From a virus (lineage: Duplodnaviria; Heunggongvirae; Uroviricota; Caudoviricetes): 40,223 nt of DNA. The translations under genes were made by a program, and so were the position numbers. The stretch spans positions 64,001 to 104,223 of IMG/VR virus record IMGVR_UViG_3300020201_000012; one strand, written 5' to 3'. The notes under the pieces were generated by a model that saw only the letters and a program-made list of their open reading frames with translations, was not told where the DNA came from and did no database searches. Shown here one piece after another: positions 28,298-40,223 of this stretch; the first letter of the stretch is position 1, and each line of letters opens with the position of its first letter.

Positions 28298-30811
28298 GTG
28301 GAAATAAAAAATAGACTCAAAAACGCAATAGCGGGATTCAAAAAAATAAACAGTCAGGGAACTGACCCAAACCACTTCTTGAAGTACGGCTCTCGTCGTA
28401 TGAATTCATCTTGGTCAACACCGAACATAACTGATGAAGACTTCTATACGGGGTATGGTTTTGCAGTAATAAACAAACGAGCAAACCGCTCGGTATCTTT
28501 AGGTAAGAAATTTCTTTTTACAGAAGCCAAAGAAGAAATAGTTAAGAAAGCAAATGATGACGGTACGCGGGTTGTTCACCCTTACTTAGATTTAATTCGT
28601 AATTCTATTGACTTCTCTGAAAGAGATTTCTGGTACAATATTTCAACCTATCTAGACCTAGAGGGTGTTTATTATTTGATGGCTGTTCGTACTGTGGTTA
28701 CTGGTGGCAAAGTAGGTAATATACAAAAATTTACCATGCTCAACCCTTACTGGGTCAAACCCGTAGTTAACTCTAAGGGTATTCTTGGTGGTTACGCCGA
28801 ATCTAACCCGCATCTCGGTAATAGAGTTATTGCTAAGGAAATGATTATACCTATTACTCTTCTAAACCCATTTGATGAGACTAAGACTTACTCTTTAGCT
28901 GATGCCTCACGAGACTCTCAGTTTACACTTAAGCAAGCTAACGACTTTGCTCGTGAGTCTATTGATGGCAACTTAAATGCACCAGGTATTTTAAGTTCTG
29001 CTATCGAACTTCCTGATGACCAATTTGAAAACTTCGTAAATCGTATAAAGAACCACGGCCGTGGTGAGCCTCTATTTGGCAACGGTTCAGGTACAATCTC
29101 ATGGACTGATATGCAGACCGACTTAGACAAAGCCGCTCTCGATAAAATCAACTCAATAAACCGCGACGTTCTACTTGCGGTAGCCGGTACATCAAAAACC
29201 GGTGTTGGTGTAGAAGAATCAGGCACGGGCCGAGAAGTTTCACGAACTCAAAAAGATGACTTTACTGAAAATGCTGTTATGCCTCAAATAGAGAATATAA
29301 TCGATTCTTTAAACCTTGACTATCGTAGATTTTATGATACTGAATACAAAAAGAATAACTACATTATTGCGCTTAATAACCCACTAGAAACAAACAAAGA
29401 TGCAGAACAAGCTGACGTTGACATTCGCGACTCTCAGTTCGTGCTATTGCAGGCACTCATCGCTAGGGGCTACTCTATAGATGTGGCGTCTAAATATGCT
29501 AAGGGGTTGATTGACATCACCGACTTAGGTGAACCAACAGAAGTAGTTGAACCACCCGTACTACCAGATGACACGACGCCTACTGCTGAGGTGACACCTG
29601 TAACACCAGTAGTAGAACCTAACCAGTATAAAGACAAGAGTTTTGATATTTATGAAGGCTACCCTATACCGGTCAATCAGTACTTAGGCGAACACGCCGA
29701 ACAGTTTAATGCTATATCAGAAAACGGTAGTTTTATCTACTCTACTGAAGAAGTCAAGAAAGTAACTATTGATCACTTAAAAGAAGTAGACAACGCTCTT
29801 ATTGCAATCGTAGATGATAATACTTTTATCAAATTAGGCAACTTTGAACAAGGTGCTGACCGTGCCGCTATTATTGCTAAGTTAAATAAAAGATATACCA
29901 ATCAGCCCGTGGCTGTAAAAAAAAAGATTAATTTAGATCATCATCACGATGTGCCCGAGATTATAAAGAACGCCTCATTTGACAAACAGGCTCAAATAGA
30001 TTCTAGCACTGCTCAGCTGGAATCTTCTTCTAGGGCTGCCCAGAATAAACTATATGAATGGTATGTAAATCAAATAAACGAAGGTGTAGATAGCCCGCAG
30101 CTTACTAATCTCGAGCAGTTCATAAATTCACTTACCCTACCTTTCGCTGTATACTTTACAGTTATGTTTCCTATCTATGCATCTTTTAGGGTTAGACAGA
30201 CAGCAGATGATCTCGGTATAACCGATCAAGTGCCAGTTGTAGCGTTGACCACCGAAGTTAAGGATACTATAGATCAGTTTGCAAGAAGGGACGCTACATC
30301 CCACATTAATACAATTAGAACAGACATCGAAAACGCTATAGCAACAATTCGTAGTAGTAGTCCGACCCCCGAAGAGTTTAGGCAACAGTTTCAGCAATTG
30401 TTTCAAGAAATACAGCAACGTCGCTCTCTAACTATTGCTAGCAACGCCGCTACAAGAATTTTTAATATATCTCAATATGAAGCTGATTTACAGTTTCTAA
30501 CTCGTGCCGGCTTAGTCAAGAAAGCTTATAAGGTGCTATTCTCTTTGACCGGTGCCCCGTGTTCTTTTTGTTCTTCAGTTATTGCAGAGACTAACGCGTC
30601 TCCGATTCCGTTCACTACAGCTTTTGCCAACATGGGTGATGTCATAGAAGCAGATGATAAAAAACTATCAATCAACTTCGAGAACATAATGGCCGGTAGT
30701 GTTCACACAAACTGTAATTGTGCCTATCGTTTAATAGTTAAGGATGATGTCACTGAGTCCTCTAGTCGTAGCGGAGCCATCACCGTTGATAATAGTCAAG
30801 TTGCTATCTAG
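28298..30811 (+). CDS. portal protein fused to a MuF/head-morphogenesis-like C-terminal domain
   Basis: N-terminal ~400 aa with portal features (YLDLEGVYY, LNPYWVKP, PGIL, F.ENAVMP); Pro-rich linker; CSFC...VHTNCNC MuF-type motif. Confidence 0.75.
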   Translation: MEIKNRLKNAIAGFKKINSQGTDPNHFLKYGSRRMNSSWSTPNITDEDFYTGYGFAVINKRANRSVSLGKKFLFTEAKEEIVKKANDDGTRVVHPYLDLIRNSIDFSERDFWYNISTYLDLEGVYYLMAVRTVVTGGKVGNIQKFTMLNPYWVKPVVNSKGILGGYAESNPHLGNRVIAKEMIIPITLLNPFDETKTYSLADASRDSQFTLKQANDFARESIDGNLNAPGILSSAIELPDDQFENFVNRIKNHGRGEPLFGNGSGTISWTDMQTDLDKAALDKINSINRDVLLAVAGTSKTGVGVEESGTGREVSRTQKDDFTENAVMPQIENIIDSLNLDYRRFYDTEYKKNNYIIALNNPLETNKDAEQADVDIRDSQFVLLQALIARGYSIDVASKYAKGLIDITDLGEPTEVVEPPVLPDDTTPTAEVTPVTPVVEPNQYKDKSFDIYEGYPIPVNQYLGEHAEQFNAISENGSFIYSTEEVKKVTIDHLKEVDNALIAIVDDNTFIKLGNFEQGADRAAIIAKLNKRYTNQPVAVKKKINLDHHHDVPEIIKNASFDKQAQIDSSTAQLESSSRAAQNKLYEWYVNQINEGVDSPQLTNLEQFINSLTLPFAVYFTVMFPIYASFRVRQTADDLGITDQVPVVALTTEVKDTIDQFARRDATSHINTIRTDIENAIATIRSSSPTPEEFRQQFQQLFQEIQQRRSLTIASNAATRIFNISQYEADLQFLTRAGLVKKAYKVLFSLTGAPCSFCSSVIAETNASPIPFTTAFANMGDVIEADDKKLSINFENIMAGSVHTNCNCAYRLIVKDDVTESSSRSGAITVDNSQVAI

Positions 30812-33061: not shown

Positions 33062-33406
33062 ATGGACTCAATAACCATAAGATATGGCGAAAGCCTTACG
33101 CTACCTATAGACACTGGTGATGCCAGCGCTACTTCTGCTTCAATCTATGTTGGCAAGCCAGGAGTTATTTTTGTTATTAGCAAAACTATTTCACTCGTCA
33201 GCGGAAAAGGGGTATTTATACTCGCATCTGTTGATACCCGAATTCCCCTAGGCACGTACTACTATCAGATTAACGTAACTGACGCACTTGGTTATGTAGA
33301 GAAATACCCAACGGCAGATATGGACTGTGATGGCGGCGAACAAGGTGAAAGCGACTTTCCTAAGTTTATAGTACGTGAGGCTCTCGACGAAATAGAGGTT
33401 TCGTAA
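33062..33406 (+). CDS. BppU-like / Ig-like virion protein
   Basis: ITIRYGESLTL...GTYYYQINVTD beta-sandwich pattern. Confidence 0.5.
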   Translation: MDSITIRYGESLTLPIDTGDASATSASIYVGKPGVIFVISKTISLVSGKGVFILASVDTRIPLGTYYYQINVTDALGYVEKYPTADMDCDGGEQGESDFPKFIVREALDEIEVS

Positions 33407-33735
33407 TGATTAGCATACGTCTTAGCAAACAGAACAAGACGATAAAACTACTCAACCAAAACGGCACTCTTCGTTTAACTAGAGAGTCTAAGACGGTTAA
33501 GGTTGTTAACCGCTCGAATAATATTCGCCTAACCCACGGCGGTAAAACCGGCCCAGTGAGTACAGTTCCTGGCCCAGAAGGACCACAAGGCCCTACTGGT
33601 GTTAGTACATTCGTAAGGGTACACCATTTAGCAAATGCAGCGGTGGCAAGGCCCATAGCGATATTTGTAGAATGGGTAGGCAGCGTCGCACCGCTAAACG
33701 CGACCACACAAGACACATGGATACACACCCCATAA
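33406..33735 (+). CDS. small structural protein with a short collagen-like segment
   Basis: GPVSTVPGPEGPQGPTG. Confidence 0.55.
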   Translation: MISIRLSKQNKTIKLLNQNGTLRLTRESKTVKVVNRSNNIRLTHGGKTGPVSTVPGPEGPQGPTGVSTFVRVHHLANAAVARPIAIFVEWVGSVAPLNATTQDTWIHTP

Positions 33736-33793
33736 CGGGATTATTGTATAATATAAAGAGTACTAATATACTCAAACAAAAAAAGGAAAAACA

Positions 33794-34330
33794 ATGGCAA
33801 CAGTCATCATCAACAGACTAACAGGAGCGGGCCCAGCAGCTACTGATATTACGTCTATCAACACTCGTGCGAACGCAGAAGACGCTCACACAACAGCAGG
33901 TACTACTAACAGCATTTTAGTTCCAGCAGCAGGTACCAACTATTCATACTGGGTTACAACTCGGCTTGAAGTTACTGCAATCACAGCAGGTACAGTAGAC
34001 AACGTTCAGTGGTTCACTGACGGTGCTAATAACTTCGGTACGGGGGTTACTTGTTCTGTAGGTACAGCAACTGGTTACACACAAGCTTCTGGTACTGCGG
34101 GTACTACAGGCCTTCAATTAACAGTAGGCAACTTTGGAACATTTACACTAGGTAACGCTAACGCATTCACCTACACAACAGGTTCACCGCTAACCGTAAC
34201 CGGTACAACAAGCACTACCGGTCAGTTCGGTAGTCGTGTGGTATATCAAATCGAAGTCGGTACAACAGCCCTTTCAGGTGCAACAGCAACTGAAACATTC
34301 ACATGGCGCTTTGACGACACATCAAGCTAA
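33794..34330 (+). CDS. Thr/Gly/Ala-rich virion structural protein
   Basis: Composition and AAGGA RBS. Confidence 0.6.
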   Translation: MATVIINRLTGAGPAATDITSINTRANAEDAHTTAGTTNSILVPAAGTNYSYWVTTRLEVTAITAGTVDNVQWFTDGANNFGTGVTCSVGTATGYTQASGTAGTTGLQLTVGNFGTFTLGNANAFTYTTGSPLTVTGTTSTTGQFGSRVVYQIEVGTTALSGATATETFTWRFDDTSS

Positions 34331-34351
34331 GATTAAAAAAAAGGAAAAAAT

Positions 34352-34600
34352 ATGACACATGCAAAAGTAGGCGACAGAGTAACGATTCTAACTAACACCC
34401 CTGAAGGTCATCCTGTCACGGGCACTGTTAAGGTAGTTCAAGAAGAAGCCGGCAAAGTAGTTGGGGTTGAACTCGACGAATATACAGTATATGGTCACAG
34501 TCTTGACGGTCTAGTAGACGAACGCGAACAAGGCGGCGATCTACCAGTAATCGGTAAGGGTTGGTGGGCTAACCACGACAACGTACAAATACAAGAATAA
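34352..34600 (+). CDS. SH3/KOW-like hypothetical protein
   Basis: KVGDRVTI...GTVKVV...VGVELDE. Confidence 0.55.
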   Translation: MTHAKVGDRVTILTNTPEGHPVTGTVKVVQEEAGKVVGVELDEYTVYGHSLDGLVDEREQGGDLPVIGKGWWANHDNVQIQE

Positions 34601-34654
34601 ATAAAAACATTTTAATTATCTCTAATGCAATAGAGAGAGAGGTGATGCAACACC

Positions 34655-34978
34655 GTGAAAACTATACAACTTACAAGAAACATGAACACTGTCGTTAGCG
34701 ATGGTGACTATGAAGAACTTTCTAAGTACAAATGGCTTGCTGCCTACAAAAATAAAGCTGGCAAGCCATATTTTTATGCTGCCAGAAATATATACCCTAA
34801 CGGTCGTGAAAAACCAATCATGGTATATATGCACAGAGAAATAGCTAAGGGCTCAAACGGCAAGACTACAGCTATAGACCACATTAATGGTTTGACTCTC
34901 GACAATCGTAGAGATAATTTGCGAATAGCCACTCGTGCCCAGAATTTAGCTAATAAAATTAATACTAAAGGAGTATAG
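34655..34978 (+). CDS. HNH homing endonuclease (HNH_3 type, no AP2 domain)
   Basis: SKYKW...YMHREI...IDHINGLTLDNRRDNLRIAT..QN. Confidence 0.85.
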   Translation: MKTIQLTRNMNTVVSDGDYEELSKYKWLAAYKNKAGKPYFYAARNIYPNGREKPIMVYMHREIAKGSNGKTTAIDHINGLTLDNRRDNLRIATRAQNLANKINTKGV

Positions 34979-34980
34979 AA

Positions 34981-35418
34981 ATGAATAATATTGGCGATAA
35001 ATTTAGATGGGTAGTATATACTAACGAGGGCGGAAGTGTCTCTCAAGTTACAGCTACCGGACAAAAGAACTCTTACGAAGACTTGCCACTTACCGACTTG
35101 AGAACATTCGAGTTATGGGACTGGCAGGCTGACCAAAGAGTTCTTCTTGTTAACTTCAAAAAGGGTGAACGACTGGTTTGGCGTAGACGAAAAGAAATGT
35201 CTGCCGGTAACGACATCACAGAGACCTGCCATATCGTAGGTAAAATAGGTAAAGATGGTCAAAAGGGTATCTTAGGTATCTTTGAATCTGACGGTCATAT
35301 TGAGGCTATTGGCGAATTTTTACCAAACAGTAACTGGTTCTACCCACCTTCAGGCGAAACTGAGAAACAGGCTGTGAGCCCACCCCTTGTATCTAACCCC
35401 CTAACTGAAAGGAGTTAG
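34981..35418 (+). CDS. hypothetical protein
   Basis: GGAG RBS; ORF within the structural cluster. Confidence 0.6.
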   Translation: MNNIGDKFRWVVYTNEGGSVSQVTATGQKNSYEDLPLTDLRTFELWDWQADQRVLLVNFKKGERLVWRRRKEMSAGNDITETCHIVGKIGKDGQKGILGIFESDGHIEAIGEFLPNSNWFYPPSGETEKQAVSPPLVSNPLTERS

Positions 35419-35420
35419 TA

Positions 35421-36404
35421 ATGGCAGATGTAAAAGTAAGTGCTTTACCAGCATATACAGCACCAATTAACACAGACGTAATACCTATTGTTGACGTAAC
35501 AGCAGTAGCTAGTAAGAAGATAGCAATATCCGACCTATTCACGTTGCCCGAAACAGTATCTCCAACCACACCAGCAGCAGCTAAGGTTAAGGTATTCGGG
35601 CGAAGTAAGGGTGGAAGAATGATGATTGCACAGATAGGTCCATCAGGACTTGATACAGCCATGCAACCTTTCTTGGGTAGCAATAAAATGGCGATATGGT
35701 CACACTCAGGTAACTCCACCGCCATCACCGCACCAACACTGTTTCTTCTTAACATGGCTCACGTTGCAGGTAATCAAGAAGGTGCAGCAACGGCTAGAAA
35801 CCTTACCGCAGCAACTAACATACTAAACGGAGTACGAAGGTTTGGGCTTGTTACAAACGCAGCCGCCAACCTAAGCGTAGGAATTAGACAGCTAATTACT
35901 CAGTGGTTTAGGGGTGACGCAACGACTAAGGGTGGATTCTTTATGACAGCTCGTTTCGGTTACAACACAGCCGCTTCTGGTAATCGTGGATTCGTAGGTT
36001 TCTCAAGTGTAACTGCAGCCTACACAATAACTGCCGACCCCTCAGCAACAGGTACAGGCTCGACTGGTATTTGTATTGGCTTTGGCTTTGATGCTGCTGA
36101 TACTAACTGGCAAGTGTTTAGACGAACAGCAACAGGTGACGCAGTAACAAAGACCGACACAGGCATGGCTAAACCAGTTGCAGGTAAGTTCTACGAAGCG
36201 GCAATCTTTTCAGCACCAGAAGCTACATCTGTTTCTCTTACTCTCCAAGACCTAAGCACAGGAGCAATATACAACCTATCTACCTCAACTGCATTACCGC
36301 CACAAAACACTCTAATGTCACAGCGTATCTGGGGCAACACAGGCACAAGCACTACAGTTCTAGGACTAGACACATCACTAATGTATATAGAAACAGACTA
36401 CTAA
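35421..36404 (+). CDS. tail fibre / minor structural protein
   Basis: N-terminal VKVSALPA...DVIPIVD...KKIAISDL motif common in phage fibre proteins; Thr/Ala/Gly-rich beta composition. Confidence 0.6.
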   Translation: MADVKVSALPAYTAPINTDVIPIVDVTAVASKKIAISDLFTLPETVSPTTPAAAKVKVFGRSKGGRMMIAQIGPSGLDTAMQPFLGSNKMAIWSHSGNSTAITAPTLFLLNMAHVAGNQEGAATARNLTAATNILNGVRRFGLVTNAAANLSVGIRQLITQWFRGDATTKGGFFMTARFGYNTAASGNRGFVGFSSVTAAYTITADPSATGTGSTGICIGFGFDAADTNWQVFRRTATGDAVTKTDTGMAKPVAGKFYEAAIFSAPEATSVSLTLQDLSTGAIYNLSTSTALPPQNTLMSQRIWGNTGTSTTVLGLDTSLMYIETDY

Positions 36405-36448: not shown

Positions 36449-39400
36449 ATGGACAGGTATCTATTAGACAATATTGTCGATACTTATTTTTTTGACGGCT
36501 CTGATGCTGCTGCTACTGACCCAAACAGTAACTGGTCTAATGATGCGAATGCCTTTGATGGTAGTATTGCGACTGTATCTACGGGTACTTCAACGGGTTC
36601 TACGGCTATTAGGTTTCTTATGGCGGAGGGTACAAATGCTCCTGCGAGTGGCAGTACGATAACAACCGTTCGGGCACGTATGCACGGAACGGCGGCGGCG
36701 GTTGGGCAAATTGATGCCGCAATATACACCGATACACTAGCAGAATTATTGGGTACAACTACTAAAACTGGTGATAACGGATATGGTTCTTATATAACCC
36801 TTTCTACTCCTACGGGTGGTTGGACTTGGGCTAAACTTCAAGCCTTAGAGGTAAAAATATATACAGTAACTATTGACTTGTCCAGTCCTACGGTAAGTAG
36901 AGTAGAAATAGAAGTAACCTCATCTGACCCCACAGACGGCTATCTTCTTGAAGATGGTACTGGTGTTTATTTAATTGATGTCAACTTACAGGTTGCTCTA
37001 AACACTCCTGCTAATGCAGCCACAAGCGTATCAACCACCCCAACCCTAGAGTTTACTGGTACAGATGCAGAGAGTAATGATATACGGTATAACGTACAGG
37101 TAGATACGGTTAATACTTTTGATGGTGGCAATAGTGTGATAGATAGTTATTCTGAGTCTAACCAAAATACTACTTTTACTTATGGTAATACATCTAGCTC
37201 TGCTTCATTTTTTGGTCAGACATTTACTGGCGACGGAGGTGTGTTAAAAAAGGCTACTTTTTTCATAGGTAAAAGGTCGGGTATTACTGGCAATATCTTT
37301 GCCAAGGTATACGCACATACTGGTACTTTTGGAACATCAGGAGTACCGACTGGAGGTGTTTTAGCAACTTCTGACGCAGTAGATTCAAGTACCCTGACAA
37401 CTAACCTTGCTCTAAAAGATTTTACTTTTAGCGGTGGAAATAAAATTACCTTAACCGCCAGCACTAGATATGTCGTTTTAGTAGACTGTGAAGCAACATC
37501 TTCCGCCACCGCTATAGATGTTGGTGTAGATTCAACAAGCCCAACACACGGAGGCAACTTTGTTGATGACGACCTTAGTACTTGGAACGCGTACTCTGGT
37601 TTTGATATTCCATTTTACATTTATAAAGACTCAGCACTCCTCGACAAAGTCTCTAACATAGACCCAGGTTTCGCCAACACCGTAACCCCTGCTGACACCG
37701 ACCCATTTAACTCAGGTGAAAAAGCAGATTACGATGTACAAGCTGGAGATATACTTACCGCCTCAACCACTTACTACTGGCGAGCAAGAGGACTAGACCC
37801 TACTGGTAGTAATACTTATGGGGCGTGGAGTGCTACTCGAAGCTTTACGACTGCTGCTCCTCTGGTGTCTACCCTAACTGATAACTTTAACGACAATGCT
37901 ATTAATGCGACGCTATGGACTGGTAGTGGTGGTGCTGTTGTCGAAACCAACCAACAACTTGAGATTACGTCAACACTGGCTGCACTTTATCACCAGCTCA
38001 CCAGCAATAGCCGTTATAGTCTTATTGGTTCTAGTATCTATGTTCGAGTTAAAACGGCTGGTAATCAGGCATTAACGTCCCGTCAGACAATCTTGTATAT
38101 GGAAGCTGATGCGAATAACAAAATCTATTTGCAAATAGACAATGACTTAATCGGTGCAAACTTTGTCGTGGCAGGAGTTCCAACATATGCTGTAGCCACT
38201 ACGGCTTATGCAGGTGGTTCAGTATGGCTACAGCTCAGAGAATCAGGTGGTACAACCTACTATGACTACTCAACCAATGGGGTATCGTATACAAACCTAT
38301 ATTCACACGCTAATCCTATAACTTTGACTAGTATGGAAGCTGGCTTACAGGTTGGTAACTGGTCAGTTATGGCATCAACAAGCATGTCTACCTTTGATAA
38401 CTTGAATGTAGAGCTAGTAAAAACCTTAACTCATACTACAGATTCTAACAGACGTCGTGCTACTACTCTTACCCATACAACTAGTTCTAACAGACGACTT
38501 GCAAAGACCAATACCCATACCACCGACTCTAACAGACGTGTTGGGACGGCAGCGTTTACTTTAACTCATACAACTGATGCAAACAGACGAGTAGCAAAAA
38601 CTCTCACCCACACAACTGATACACTAAAAAGAACCGCTACCTTACTAAGCCACACCACCTCATCTAACAGACGTGCAGTTAAAACTCTTAGTCACACAAC
38701 TTCTGCAAATAGAAGAAGAATAAACATACTTACCCACACTACCGACTCTAATAGACGTCTAGTCAATACTCGTACACACACAACAGATGCCCTTAAAAAA
38801 GTATCTGGTAAAACTCTTACTCATACCACTGACTCTAACAGACGATTAGTCAACACTCGTACCCACACTACAGACTCTAATAGAAGATTAGTCAATACTA
38901 GAACCCATACTACAAACTCTAATAGACGGTTAGTCAACACACGTACTCACACTACCGACTCTAACCGACGTTCGTCGAAGGCTCTGACTCATACAGCTGA
39001 CGCGAACAAGCGTACTGTTAATACCCAAACTCACACAACCAGTTCTAATAGAAGGTCGGTTAATACTAGAACCCATACCACCGATGCCCTAAAGCGCAGA
39101 CAACTCACCTTAACCCATACCACAGATGCCAACAGACGGGTTGCAAAAACACTCGCTCACACAACTGACGCCAACCGACGTTCGTCGAATATCTTAACCC
39201 ATACTACTGATGTCAACAGACGTACAGCCAAAATTCTTACCCACACGACCTCTTCTAACAGACGGCTTGTTAGTGCTATAAGTCATACTACCAGTTCGAA
39301 TAAGCGTGTTGCTAACATAACTCGGGCCCACACAACTGATGCACTAAAGCGAGTAGCTGCTACGCTAACCCATACTACTTCAGCTAATAGAAGAGCGATA

Positions 39401-40223
39401 AAGACCTTAACTCATACTACAGACTCACTAAGACGTGCACGTCTAACTCTTACTCACACAACTAGCTCTAACAGAAGACTAGTTAATACTAGAACTCACA
39501 CAACAGACTCTAATAGAAAGCGAGCTGGCTTAACTGTAGGTCACGCAACCGACACGCTTAAACGTGCACGAACAATTGTCACTCATACAACTAATTCGTT
39601 ATTGAGTAGACAGCTAGTTCTTGATCACACAACAGACGTGTCTAAGCGAGTACAGACTGCTAGAACCCACACAACTAATTCTCTGCTTCGTAAGCAGCTT
39701 GTATTAACTCATACTACTGACACTCTTAAGCGAGCAAGAAATGTCGCTTCACACGCTACTGATGCACTAAAACGAAGTACCGCTACGCTCGTTCACACTA
39801 CAAACAGCTTCCTAAGACGAACACTCACGGCATTTCATACGACTAATGCCAACAGAAGAATAGTTGGAAAGACAGTTACTCACACAGCCAGCGCGAACAA
39901 GATGGTCGCAGGTAATGTAGTATCTCATACGACTAGTGCTAATAGAAGGGTAGTTGGAAAAATAACTACCCATACTACTGATTCACTGAAGCGTAGAATT
40001 AGTGTTCTATCTCATACTACCAACGCGCTGTTACGTAAGATATTCACAGTACAACACACTAACGACGCTAACAGGCGTGCATCAAAAACTCTAACCCACA
40101 CTACTGACGCAAACAGAAGAGCGGTCAAAACACTTACTCACACGACTAGTGCTAATAAGCGTGCTGCTGGGAACATTCTTACCCACACTACTAGTGCTAA
40201 CAGAAGACTAGTTAATACTAGAA
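36449..40223 (+). CDS. large fibre-like virion protein (>1258 aa, 3'-partial) with FN3-like and lectin-like domains and a His/Thr/Arg repeat region
   Basis: Hand translation from ATG 36449 shows no stop before the window end; YYWRARG...GAWSATRSFTT (FN3-like); DNFNDN...WLQLRESGGTTYYDYS (ConA/LamG-like). Confidence 0.8.
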   Translation, partial: MDRYLLDNIVDTYFFDGSDAAATDPNSNWSNDANAFDGSIATVSTGTSTGSTAIRFLMAEGTNAPASGSTITTVRARMHGTAAAVGQIDAAIYTDTLAELLGTTTKTGDNGYGSYITLSTPTGGWTWAKLQALEVKIYTVTIDLSSPTVSRVEIEVTSSDPTDGYLLEDGTGVYLIDVNLQVALNTPANAATSVSTTPTLEFTGTDAESNDIRYNVQVDTVNTFDGGNSVIDSYSESNQNTTFTYGNTSSSASFFGQTFTGDGGVLKKATFFIGKRSGITGNIFAKVYAHTGTFGTSGVPTGGVLATSDAVDSSTLTTNLALKDFTFSGGNKITLTASTRYVVLVDCEATSSATAIDVGVDSTSPTHGGNFVDDDLSTWNAYSGFDIPFYIYKDSALLDKVSNIDPGFANTVTPADTDPFNSGEKADYDVQAGDILTASTTYYWRARGLDPTGSNTYGAWSATRSFTTAAPLVSTLTDNFNDNAINATLWTGSGGAVVETNQQLEITSTLAALYHQLTSNSRYSLIGSSIYVRVKTAGNQALTSRQTILYMEADANNKIYLQIDNDLIGANFVVAGVPTYAVATTAYAGGSVWLQLRESGGTTYYDYSTNGVSYTNLYSHANPITLTSMEAGLQVGNWSVMASTSMSTFDNLNVELVKTLTHTTDSNRRRATTLTHTTSSNRRLAKTNTHTTDSNRRVGTAAFTLTHTTDANRRVAKTLTHTTDTLKRTATLLSHTTSSNRRAVKTLSHTTSANRRRINILTHTTDSNRRLVNTRTHTTDALKKVSGKTLTHTTDSNRRLVNTRTHTTDSNRRLVNTRTHTTNSNRRLVNTRTHTTDSNRRSSKALTHTADANKRTVNTQTHTTSSNRRSVNTRTHTTDALKRRQLTLTHTTDANRRVAKTLAHTTDANRRSSNILTHTTDVNRRTAKILTHTTSSNRRLVSAISHTTSSNKRVANITRAHTTDALKRVAATLTHTTSANRRAIKTLTHTTDSLRRARLTLTHTTSSNRRLVNTRTHTTDSNRKRAGLTVGHATDTLKRARTIVTHTTNSLLSRQLVLDHTTDVSKRVQTARTHTTNSLLRKQLVLTHTTDTLKRARNVASHATDALKRSTATLVHTTNSFLRRTLTAFHTTNANRRIVGKTVTHTASANKMVAGNVVSHTTSANRRVVGKITTHTTDSLKRRISVLSHTTNALLRKIFTVQHTNDANRRASKTLTHTTDANRRAVKTLTHTTSANKRAAGNILTHTTSANRRLVNTR
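38417..40223 (+). repeat. 42 tandem ~14-aa coding repeats (consensus T-H-T-T-D/S-S/A-N-R-R-x-x-K/N-T-L/R)
   Basis: Counted by hand translation; continues past the window end. Confidence 0.9.

What the first reader, a model, noticed from the sequence alone, without database searches (positions are those of the whole stretch)
36449..40223. Unannotated giant ORF with 42+ polycationic His-Thr-Thr-x-x-Asn-Arg-Arg repeats
It is missing from the track because it has no stop in the window. About 655 aa of acidic/neutral beta domains are followed by 600+ aa of 14-15-aa repeats, each with one invariant His and usually two basic residues, and almost no acidic residues except one Asp. Codons are diversified, but a run of near-identical HTTDSNRRLVNTRT units (about 38730-38970) indicates recent expansion. 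Inference: a beta-solenoid or metal-stapled fibre presenting a long Arg ladder that binds polyanions (cell-surface polymers, eDNA, minerals). I cannot assign it to a known repeat family.
Basis: partly seen in the sequence, partly recalled or inferred. Interest (0 to 1): 0.7.

Follow-up and report, generated by a model that had tools for sequence, protein, structure and literature searches.

The report
Phage fibre with undescribed His-Thr-Thr-Asp repeat
This is the front 3.8 kb of a real phage structural gene, cut off by an assembly break, whose long stalk is built from a 14-residue His-Thr-Thr-Asp repeat that occurs in many uncultured phages but matched no curated family, solved structure or searched paper.

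Summary
ORF 36449-40222 (+) has 1258 codons and no stop. An acidic all-beta N-terminal part of 655 aa (pI 4.2) is followed by 42 His-anchored units (33 of 14 aa), with a net charge of about +2 per unit (pI 12).

The window is the last 40 kb of a 104-kb uncultured phage from microbial mats. Synteny with sister phages shows the contig is a circular permutation broken inside this repeat array. Other assemblies run about 460 nt further.

The repeat defines a virus-restricted family: 114 protein clusters and about 15 IMG/VR contigs, but only 1 true hit in 185,579 prokaryote genomes and none in 50,697 cultured phages. It has no Pfam, PHROG, NCBIfam or PDB match. Only T-H-T-T-D plus two hydrophobic positions are conserved. 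Charge ranges from +2.4 to -2.2 per unit, so the arginine ladder is a clade trait.

The "recent expansion" claim fails: peptide-identical units are only 81-83% identical in DNA.

A monomer AlphaFold2 model did not fold (pLDDT 34), so the fold is unknown.

Best reading: a modular virion adhesin fibre with glycan-binding-type heads on an undescribed, probably oligomeric, shaft.

The parts
36449..40222 (+). 3'-open ORF (P0001, 1258 codons) for the modular fibre protein. It is truncated by the contig end.
   Evidence: Synteny showing truncation. Contigs of other runs extend about 461 nt beyond 40223.
36473..36928 (+). Module A (aa 9-160): a beta-sandwich that also occurs alone or in other positions in relatives, for example just before the repeats in P0005 and P0033.
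   Evidence: AF2 pLDDT about 95. Independent occurrence in many proteins.
36986..37858 (+). Module B (aa 180-470): read as an FN3-like / beta-sandwich / FN3-like string. It is the most widespread module.
   Evidence: AF2 pLDDT about 93. 5405 hits at E<1e-3 for the N-terminal part, most over aa 180-470. Weak Ig_Rha78A_N match. Fold matches to CBM32, CBM51 and F-lectin, and to phage minor tail and central fibre proteins.
37862..38413 (+). Module C (aa 472-655): a low-confidence linker (474-540) followed by a beta-sandwich of probable LamG/ConA-like type.
   Evidence: AF2 pLDDT 65-83 for aa 545-635. phrog_14065 at E 1.6e-8. 29% identity to a gene of Streptomyces phage Ponzi annotated as glycoside hydrolase.
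38414..40222 (+). Array of 42 units of the 14/15-aa repeat. Consensus here: H-T-T-[DSN]-[SA]-[NL]-[RK]-R-x-x-x-T-[LR]-T.
   Evidence: Strain variants keep H-T-T-D-A-N-R-R and change only unit positions 9-14.
38735..38947 (+). Units 8-12, the run flagged as 'near-identical'. The peptides are identical or nearly so, but the DNA is 79-83% identical.
40200..40223 (+). The last 24 nt of the contig are an exact copy of 39471-39494. This is the likely cause of the assembly break.
   Evidence: All four assemblies laid on the region fragment inside the array.
35421..36404 (+). Upstream neighbour P0002 (327 aa, phrog_13925, function unknown). It occupies the same variable slot and replaces a 131-aa gene of sister phage L020.
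34981..35418 (+). 145-aa protein. Homologues precede the repeat gene in most related loci.
33794..34330 (+). 178-aa protein, the best-conserved gene of this phage group (48-89% identity). It marks the upstream edge of the variable slot that holds the repeat gene.
28298..30811 (+). Portal protein, which places the locus in the virion structural block.
   Evidence: PF04860 at E 2e-13 and phrog_2662.

Best explanation
The ORF is the first 1258 codons of a longer phage structural gene. The contig is a circular permutation of the genome, and the assembly broke inside the gene's own repeat array.

The protein is a modular virion-surface fibre (adhesin). At the N-terminus are three acidic beta-sandwich modules of the kind used for glycan binding by phage tail and receptor-binding proteins. 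They are followed by a very long shaft of at least 42 units, and probably at least 53. Each unit is 14 or 15 aa and is built around T-H-T-T-D. By analogy with the sister phages, the missing end holds more units and a cap of about 40 aa (NGxW three times).

The shaft repeat is a generic, virus-restricted building block. It is combined with many different head domains (Kelch, LamG, glycoside hydrolase families 5, 8 and 18) and with different C-terminal caps.

I infer that the invariant His, Thr and Asp, together with the hydrophobic positions 6 and 13, form the core or inter-chain contacts of an elongated, probably trimeric, assembly. Positions 7-11 would face solvent and set the surface charge. 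In this phage clade that charge is strongly cationic, and it may add non-specific attraction to anionic cell envelopes or mat matrix.

Shown: gene reality, truncation, modularity, family distribution and the conservation pattern.
Inferred: virion location, oligomeric state, fold, and any role of charge or metal.
For: - Truncation and circular permutation. In sister phages L019 and L020 the gene after the repeat gene is the orthologue (66% and 56% identity) of the first gene of our contig, and the following eight genes are colinear. The genes upstream of the L020 repeat gene match window 33062-35418. In run X1 a 1575-nt contig covers 39110-40223 and continues for 461 nt.
- Structural context. 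The portal lies upstream. Connector-sized genes, a tape measure protein, a minor tail protein and an endolysin lie downstream across the junction.
- Family. 114 clusters at E<=1e-3 with varied N-terminal Pfam domains. 14 and 15 aa are the dominant spacings in nearly all of them. About 15 IMG/VR contigs carry true arrays, against 1 of 9 pattern hits in 185,579 prokaryote genomes.
- Conservation. T at position 3 is 96% and D at position 4 is 85-90% conserved over 1644 units anchored on the His motif, and positions 6, 7 and 13 are hydrophobic. Strain SNPs spare the H-T-T-D-x-N-R-R half. Identical peptides carry diverged codons.
- Head modules. The AF2 model has mean pLDDT 80. Fold matches include Douge central fibre gp20, phi812 baseplate proteins, CBM32, CBM51 and F-lectin. 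Among viral models, the named matches are mostly minor tail, host-specificity, tail-fibre and receptor-binding proteins.
- No N-terminal hydrophobic signal-like stretch is visible, which fits assembly in the cytoplasm.
Against: - There is no direct evidence that the protein is in virions. No cultured relative exists.
- The gene lies between the portal and the putative capsid gene, not after the tape measure where siphovirus fibre genes usually sit. The attachment site (tail, neck or head) is therefore open.
- The variable end is N-terminal, the opposite of classical tail fibres.
- The shaft did not fold as a monomer in AlphaFold2, so order itself is inferred only from conservation and composition.
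- The Chou-Fasman profile is mixed alpha/beta and does not decide the fold.
Confidence: 0.6

Rival explanations
1. Capsid (head) fibre or decoration. The fibre is anchored on the capsid through its C-terminal cap or shaft and projects the N-terminal glycan-binding modules outwards, like T4 Hoc, phi29 gp8.5 or SPP1 gp12. This is a variant of the best explanation that differs in attachment site and orientation.
For: In this phage and in L019, L020, L044 and L025 the gene lies directly upstream of the 591-750-aa gene that gives the only, weak, capsid-protein match (8eb4_A, E 0.2), and downstream of the portal. The variable N-terminus and clade-conserved C-terminal cap fit a Hoc-like orientation. 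From my own knowledge, decoration and head-fibre genes commonly sit next to the capsid gene (lambda D, SPP1 gp12, phi29 gp8.5).
Against: Named fold matches of the N-terminal modules are nearly all tail proteins, none a head decoration protein. In L037 the repeat gene follows a run of large tail-like genes. The tail tip genes of this phage are small and include no other long fibre. The capsid assignment of the 739-aa gene is itself weak.
Confidence: 0.25
2. Monomeric beta-solenoid with a histidine ladder and an arginine ladder that binds polyanions.
For: A T-H-T (TxT-like) triplet is present in 35 of 42 units. The 14-15-residue period is within the range of the tightest known beta-rolls and insect antifreeze solenoids (my own knowledge). 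Asn and Leu alternate at position 6, as in solenoid interiors. The units carry about +2 net charge each.
Against: AlphaFold2 with 71 homologues gives pLDDT 34 and no strands, although regular solenoids are usually easy targets. Gly and Pro, common at solenoid turns, are almost absent (1.6% and 0.4%). The charge is reversed in many relatives with the same core.
Confidence: 0.1
3. An intrinsically disordered, Thr-rich spacer, possibly O-glycosylated, that simply distances the head domains from the particle.
For: The monomer prediction gives no confident structure. Thr makes up 25% of the array. Other notes of this scan read Thr-rich phage stalks as sugar-coated spacers.
Against: The period is strict, with an invariant His. 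H-T-T-D is conserved at only about 30% overall identity. About 23% of residues are Leu, Val or Ile, and Pro is almost absent. Purifying selection acts on exact peptides. No glycosyltransferase appeared among the neighbours I scanned, though the genome was not scanned systematically.
Confidence: 0.12
4. An internal or ejected virion protein whose polycationic array binds the packaged DNA.
For: The gene lies in the head-gene region between portal and capsid genes. The array has pI 12.
Against: The head modules are lectin-, FN3- and LamG-like, and in relatives Kelch domains or chitinase- and cellulase-type hydrolases. These are typical of external adhesins. Many family members are acidic.
Confidence: 0.03

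Closest known systems
His-containing metal-binding fibre tips of phages and R-type pyocins (T4 gp37 needle with HxH-coordinated iron; from my own knowledge; PMC6116203 and PMC11705849 were listed but not read)
   Same: A phage fibre protein with periodically spaced invariant His in Thr/Ser-rich, Gly-poor sequence. If the shaft is trimeric, the His could line the axis.
   Different: There is one His per 14/15 aa and no HxH (0 in P0001; 8 of 2534 family units). The arrays hold 42-93 units rather than a handful of sites. No sequence similarity to any PDB chain. Metal binding is untested.
Triple beta-spiral shafts of adenovirus fibre and reovirus sigma1 (15-residue pseudo-repeat; my own knowledge)
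   Same: A viral fibre shaft made of many short repeats of about 15 residues, ending in a distinct terminal domain.
   Different: The spiral needs a conserved Gly or Pro turn and a set hydrophobic pattern. Here Pro is 0 and Gly is 8 of 603 residues. No profile match was found.
Alpha/beta coiled coils with repeated beta-layers (Hartmann et al. 2016, PMC4786415)
   Same: A short periodic repeat in which a Thr-containing triplet is followed by an acidic residue and an amphipathic stretch. Beta-layers occur in several phage fibres.
   Different: The beta-layer consensus is [aliphatic]-A-T-K-polar-[D/E], with nonad or hexad spacing. Here the motif is T-H-T-T-D-[AS]-hydrophobic at 14/15 spacing. Neither the consensus nor the period fits.
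Mycobacteriophage Douge central fibre gp20 (PDB 8zdp) and actinophage 'minor tail proteins'
   Same: The N-terminal 655 aa shares the string of FN3 and lectin-like beta-sandwich modules by fold (Foldseek E 2e-6 in PDB; down to 6e-10 in BFVD).
   Different: TM-scores over the whole model are low (0.1-0.24), so this is module-level resemblance only. None of these proteins carries the H-T-T-D shaft.
Head fibres and decoration proteins encoded next to the capsid gene (SPP1 gp12 collagen-like trimer, phi29 gp8.5, T4 Hoc; my own knowledge)
   Same: The gene sits beside the putative capsid gene. The variable outward-facing domains with a more conserved opposite end resemble Hoc.
   Different: No sequence or fold similarity was found. 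These proteins are far smaller, and capsid attachment is untested here.

Membership tests
Any curated repeat or domain family (Pfam-A, PHROGs v4, NCBIfam 20) | A significant, consistent profile match over the repeat region | tested here: not met
   P0001:650-1258 gives only sub-threshold chance hits in Pfam, none in PHROGs and none in NCBIfam. Across 71 family members the hits scatter over 62 unrelated Pfam families, none in more than 4 members.
Proteins of known structure (PDB) | Sequence or profile similarity to a solved chain | tested here: not met
   phmmer with P0001 gave 0 hits at E<=1. hmmsearch with the 71-sequence profile gave 0 hits at E<=10.
HxH metal-binding fibre tip (T4 gp37 type) | His-x-His motifs supplying six His per metal in a trimer | tested here: not met
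   0 HxH in the 603-aa array, and 8 of 2534 family units.
HxH metal-binding fibre tip (T4 gp37 type) | Homotrimer with metal ions on the axis | not testable with these tools
   The one available trimer job returned no verdict. Metal content needs purified protein.
Triple beta-spiral (adenovirus and reovirus shaft) | About 15-residue repeat with a conserved Gly/Pro turn | tested here: not met
   The period is similar (14/15), but Pro is 0 and Gly is 8 of 603. Family-wide, Gly is 1.6% and Pro 0.4%.
Alpha/beta coiled coil (beta-layer fibres) | Consensus [aliphatic]-A-T-K-polar-[D/E] with nonad (9) or hexad (6+7n) spacing | tested here: not met
   The unit profile was compared with the published consensus and registers. 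Neither motif nor period fits.
Monomeric beta-solenoid (antifreeze-like TxT coils, 14-residue beta-roll) | Each repeat forms one coil of a self-folding single-chain helix | tested here: inconclusive
   A T-H-T triplet is present in 35 of 42 units, but the AF2 monomer with alignment gave pLDDT 34 and no strands. A failed prediction does not exclude the fold.
Collagen-like phage fibres | Gly-X-Y triplet runs | tested here: not met
   No run of four or more G-X-Y triplets.
Phage virion fibre / adhesin (functional class) | Encoded in the structural gene block of a tailed phage | tested here: met
   Portal upstream. Connector-sized genes, tape measure, minor tail protein and endolysin downstream across the contig junction. 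The same order is found in sister phages.
Phage virion fibre / adhesin (functional class) | Modular exchange of binding or enzymatic domains on a constant shaft | tested here: met
   Relatives carry Kelch, LamG, GH18, GH5 and GH8 domains (Pfam) or other N-terminal regions. C-terminal caps also vary.
Phage virion fibre / adhesin (functional class) | Physical presence on the virion and a role in adsorption | not testable with these tools
   No cultured relative was found. No RNA or proteome data were available.

The most novel reading that the evidence does not exclude
The H-T-T-D array is a previously unknown fibrous protein fold found only in viruses. It would be an obligate trimer in which every 14-residue unit places one His (and Asp4) on the axis, giving a ladder of 40-90 ion or metal sites. 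The outward-facing half of the unit is free to evolve from strongly cationic to strongly acidic, so phages can tune the electrostatics of a fibre that may be very long.
Probability: 0.2. Interest if true: 0.8.

Novelty: new variant of a known kind. Interest (0 to 1): 0.55.

Why it matters
Phage fibres decide which cells a phage can reach, and their shafts come in only a few structurally understood types: coiled coil, triple beta-helix, beta-spiral and collagen. This shaft repeat is common in environmental phages and reaches 93 units in one protein. It is under strong purifying selection, yet it is absent from Pfam, PHROGs, NCBIfam and the PDB, and the prediction methods tried here gave no confident fold.

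Solving one fragment would probably add a new fibre architecture and allow hundreds of 'hypothetical' giant phage genes to be annotated. The invariant His and the tunable surface charge also make it a candidate scaffold for metal- or charge-programmed protein fibres.

For this genome, the result also shows that the '100% complete, linear' record is a circular permutation with a gap inside this gene.

Tried and rejected
- Homotrimer prediction (three copies of P0001:641-876 with alignment A2, ESMFold2). ipSAE was 0.00 and the tool returned 'no answer'. This is not evidence either way.
- Sequencing runs. No RNA holder was listed, so nothing can be said about expression.
- Aeromonas phage AVP3 'putative tail protein' tblastn hit. 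Rejected: the matched frame is full of stop codons and lies antisense to the annotated gene.
- Continuation of the ORF at the contig start. The first bases do not continue the repeat: the frame closes after 10 codons. The junction sequence is missing, not merely permuted.
- The search for related loci. With the N-terminal part it found module relatives, none with the repeat. With P0002 it found nothing.
- Atlas feature search of the repeat. Only unnamed viral clusters, with scores below 0.9.
- Search with the 57-aa C-terminal cap of P0005. It found only itself.
- Literature search for the motif strings. No relevant paper.
- Specific partnership with the 178-aa neighbour. Rejected: only about 5 of 17 loci with enough downstream sequence carry a repeat gene.
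- Repeat-number variation between samples. A contig join 38818->39029 skips 210 nt, exactly five units, in three runs. It has only 25-33 nt on its short side, so it may be a k-mer artefact and I treat it as a hint only.
- Chou-Fasman profile of the unit. Mixed and undecided.
Full report
**1. The observation**

The ORF at 36449-40222 (+) is real and open to the last full codon of the window. It has 1258 codons.

- From aa 656 on it is a regular array with 42 His. The spacings are 33 x 14, 7 x 15 and 1 x 17 residues.
- The array has no Glu, Pro, Cys, Trp or Tyr and only 8 Gly. It holds 150 Thr, 82 Arg and 30 Lys. Its net charge is +87 and its pI is 12.0.
- The preceding 655 aa are acidic, with net charge -36 and pI 4.2.

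**2. Why the ORF has no stop**

The window is the last 40,223 bases of a 104,223-bp IMG/VR virus record. The start of the record does not continue the repeat. However, two sister phages settle the question. These are L019 (92,959-bp contig, protein P0005) and L020 (72,923-bp contig, protein P0003).

- In both, the repeat gene is followed by a 750- or 726-aa gene that is 66% or 56% identical to the first gene of our record (G000 75-2294).
- The next eight genes, up to the tape measure, are colinear.
- The genes upstream of the L020 repeat gene match window 33062-35418.

So the record is a circular permutation whose ends lie inside this gene.

The cause is visible. The final 24 nt recur exactly at 39471-39494. 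All four public assemblies laid on the region fragment inside the array.

- One contig of run X1 covers 39110-40223 and continues for 461 nt, about 11 more units.
- A loose end at 38920, seen in four runs, reads in frame as a further unit that is absent from the window.
- The phage recurs in seven microbial-mat metagenome samples.

**3. What the repeat is**

No curated family matches it.

- Pfam gave only sub-threshold chance hits. PHROGs, NCBIfam and PDB (phmmer) gave none.
- A PDB search with a 71-sequence profile gave 0 hits at E<=10.
- A Pfam scan of all 71 aligned relatives gave only scattered hits, spread over 62 families with none in more than 4 members.

Yet the repeat is common.

- A search of 5.8 billion clustered proteins found 114 proteins at E<=1e-3, all unnamed or 'hypothetical'. 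14 and 15 aa are the dominant spacings in almost every one.
- A degenerate DNA pattern for three H-T-T-D motifs at 42-nt spacing found true arrays in about 15 IMG/VR contigs.
- In 185,579 prokaryote genomes the same pattern gave one true member among nine hits. That member sits on an 8-kb contig with phage-like neighbours.
- No match was found in 50,697 cultured phage genomes, using three different queries. The single AVP3 hit is an antisense artefact.

The unit profile comes from 1227 units of 14 aa and 417 units of 15 aa.

- His at position 1 is the anchor of the pattern, so it is invariant by construction. Thr2 is 76-88% conserved, Thr3 96-98% and Asp4 85-90%.
- Positions 6, 7 and 13 (or 14 in 15-mers) are hydrophobic, and position 12 and the last position are Thr/Ser-rich.
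- Positions 8-11 are variable.

In P0001, position 6 is Asn (58%) or Leu (35%), and positions 7-8 are Arg or Lys.

**4.

First, the cationic character is not a family trait. Net charge per unit runs from +2.4 to -2.2 with the same core. Most close relatives are cationic (L054, L055, L059, L020, L033, L019), though L056 is not. More distant relatives are acidic, with units such as HTTDSVLKALDNEIT.

Second, the run of identical HTTDSNRRLVNTRT peptides is not a recent expansion.

- Units 8, 10 and 11 are 81-83% identical in DNA, with 5-8 synonymous differences in 14 codons. No pair of complete 14-aa units exceeds 83%. TRF reports only 71-78% matches.
- In a strain variant seen in three other samples, the 17 changed codons include 9 synonymous changes. 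All 8 replacements lie outside H-T-T-D-x-N-R-R.

This is purifying selection on the peptide.

**5. The fold**

AlphaFold2 on P0001:641-960 with 71 homologues gave mean pLDDT 34 and no secondary structure. The single trimer job gave no verdict and counts for nothing.

Sequence features argue for an ordered fibre rather than a disordered spacer:

- a strict period;
- an invariant polar core motif, conserved at about 30% overall identity;
- about 23% Leu, Val and Ile;
- almost no Pro or Gly.

The known shaft types I could test do not fit.

| Shaft type | Result |
|---|---|
| HxH metal-binding tip | No HxH motif |
| Triple beta-spiral | No Gly/Pro turn |
| Collagen-like | No Gly-X-Y runs |
| Beta-layer alpha/beta coiled coil | Neither consensus nor spacing fits |

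The fold is therefore unknown. I favour an oligomeric, probably trimeric, shaft by analogy with other phage fibres. This is inference.

**6. The rest of the protein and its context**

The N-terminal 655 aa model well (mean pLDDT 80) as three beta modules.

- Each module occurs on its own in thousands of metagenomic proteins.
- By fold they resemble CBM32, CBM51 and F-lectin type sugar-binding sandwiches.
- They also resemble phage tail proteins: Douge central fibre gp20, phi812 baseplate proteins, actinophage minor tail proteins and host-specificity proteins.

In relatives the shaft carries Kelch propellers, LamG domains or GH18, GH5 and GH8 domains instead. The C-terminal caps also differ. 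The sister phages have a cap of about 40 aa with three NGxW motifs. So the shaft is the constant element and both ends are exchangeable.

The gene sits in a variable slot.

- Upstream are a highly conserved 178-aa gene and a 145-aa gene.
- Downstream is the 739-aa gene, which may be a capsid gene. Its only hint is a weak PDB match, E 0.2.
- In sister phages the slot holds one to three giant genes, including a 2565-aa protein with 93 units in L019.
- The 178-aa gene often occurs without any repeat gene, so the link is positional, not obligate.

The tail-tip genes after the tape measure are small (131 to 521 aa, one with a LamG domain) and include no other long fibre.

**7. Verdict**

This is a real, truncated gene for a modular virion fibre or adhesin, and its shaft is an undescribed, virus-restricted 14/15-aa H-T-T-D repeat (confidence 0.6).

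- Open: where it attaches (tail or neck about 0.5, head about 0.25), the oligomeric state, the fold, and any metal binding.
- Possible but untested: that the arginine-rich surface helps binding to anionic envelopes or mat matrix. At best this is a clade-specific function.

The scan has not recorded this repeat on other DNA.

Noticed in passing
window 34655-34978: An HNH endonuclease gene (PF13392, E 7e-9) sits between the 82-aa and 145-aa genes. It is absent from the same place in sister phage L020, so it looks like a mobile insertion inside the structural block.
   Followed up: partly
window 33794-34330: The 178-aa protein is by far the best-conserved gene of this phage group: 48-89% identity in 29 viral loci whose neighbours have often diverged beyond recognition. 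It has no family, structure or name, only a weak Big_7 hint. It may be a core virion component and is worth folding.
   Followed up: partly
window 35421-36404 (P0002): This 327-aa protein lies directly upstream. Its last 283 aa match the C-terminus of phrog_13925 (function unknown, E 4e-30). From memory, its N-terminus (MADVKVSALP...) resembles the conserved N-terminal motif of many phage tail-fibre proteins. It replaces a 131-aa gene of L020, so it may be a second fibre gene in the same slot.
   Followed up: no
L019:2316-10001: Sister phage L019 has three giant genes in the slot. One is a 2561-aa protein (2565-aa open frame) with 93 H-T-T-D units, the largest array seen. Another is a 1313-aa Kelch protein that shares module A of P0001 at 53% identity.
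   Followed up: partly
G000:C1:75-2294 (L022:75-2294): The first gene of the record (739 aa) has a long Glu/Thr/Val-rich low-complexity stretch after about 170 aa. Its only hint is a weak match to a major capsid protein (8eb4_A, E 0.2). It may be a protease or scaffold fused to a capsid protein, but it has no Pfam, PHROG or NCBIfam match.
   Followed up: partly
window 37851-37857: Other mat samples carry in-frame 3-nt deletions in the short linker between modules B and C (around aa 468-470, sequence TTAAPL). This suggests a tolerant hinge.
   Followed up: no
window 38818-39029: Contigs of three other samples join 38818 to 39029, skipping 210 nt, which is exactly five 14-aa units. Only 25-33 nt lie on the short side, so this may be real repeat-number variation or a k-mer artefact.
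   Followed up: partly
L012:727-3708: An unrelated viral contig that shares module A encodes a 994-aa protein. Its C-terminus has a different His/Tyr-rich periodic motif with HxH-like spacing (…THYHTGYASTTHYHTQY…), which may be a classical metal-binding fibre tip.
   Followed up: no
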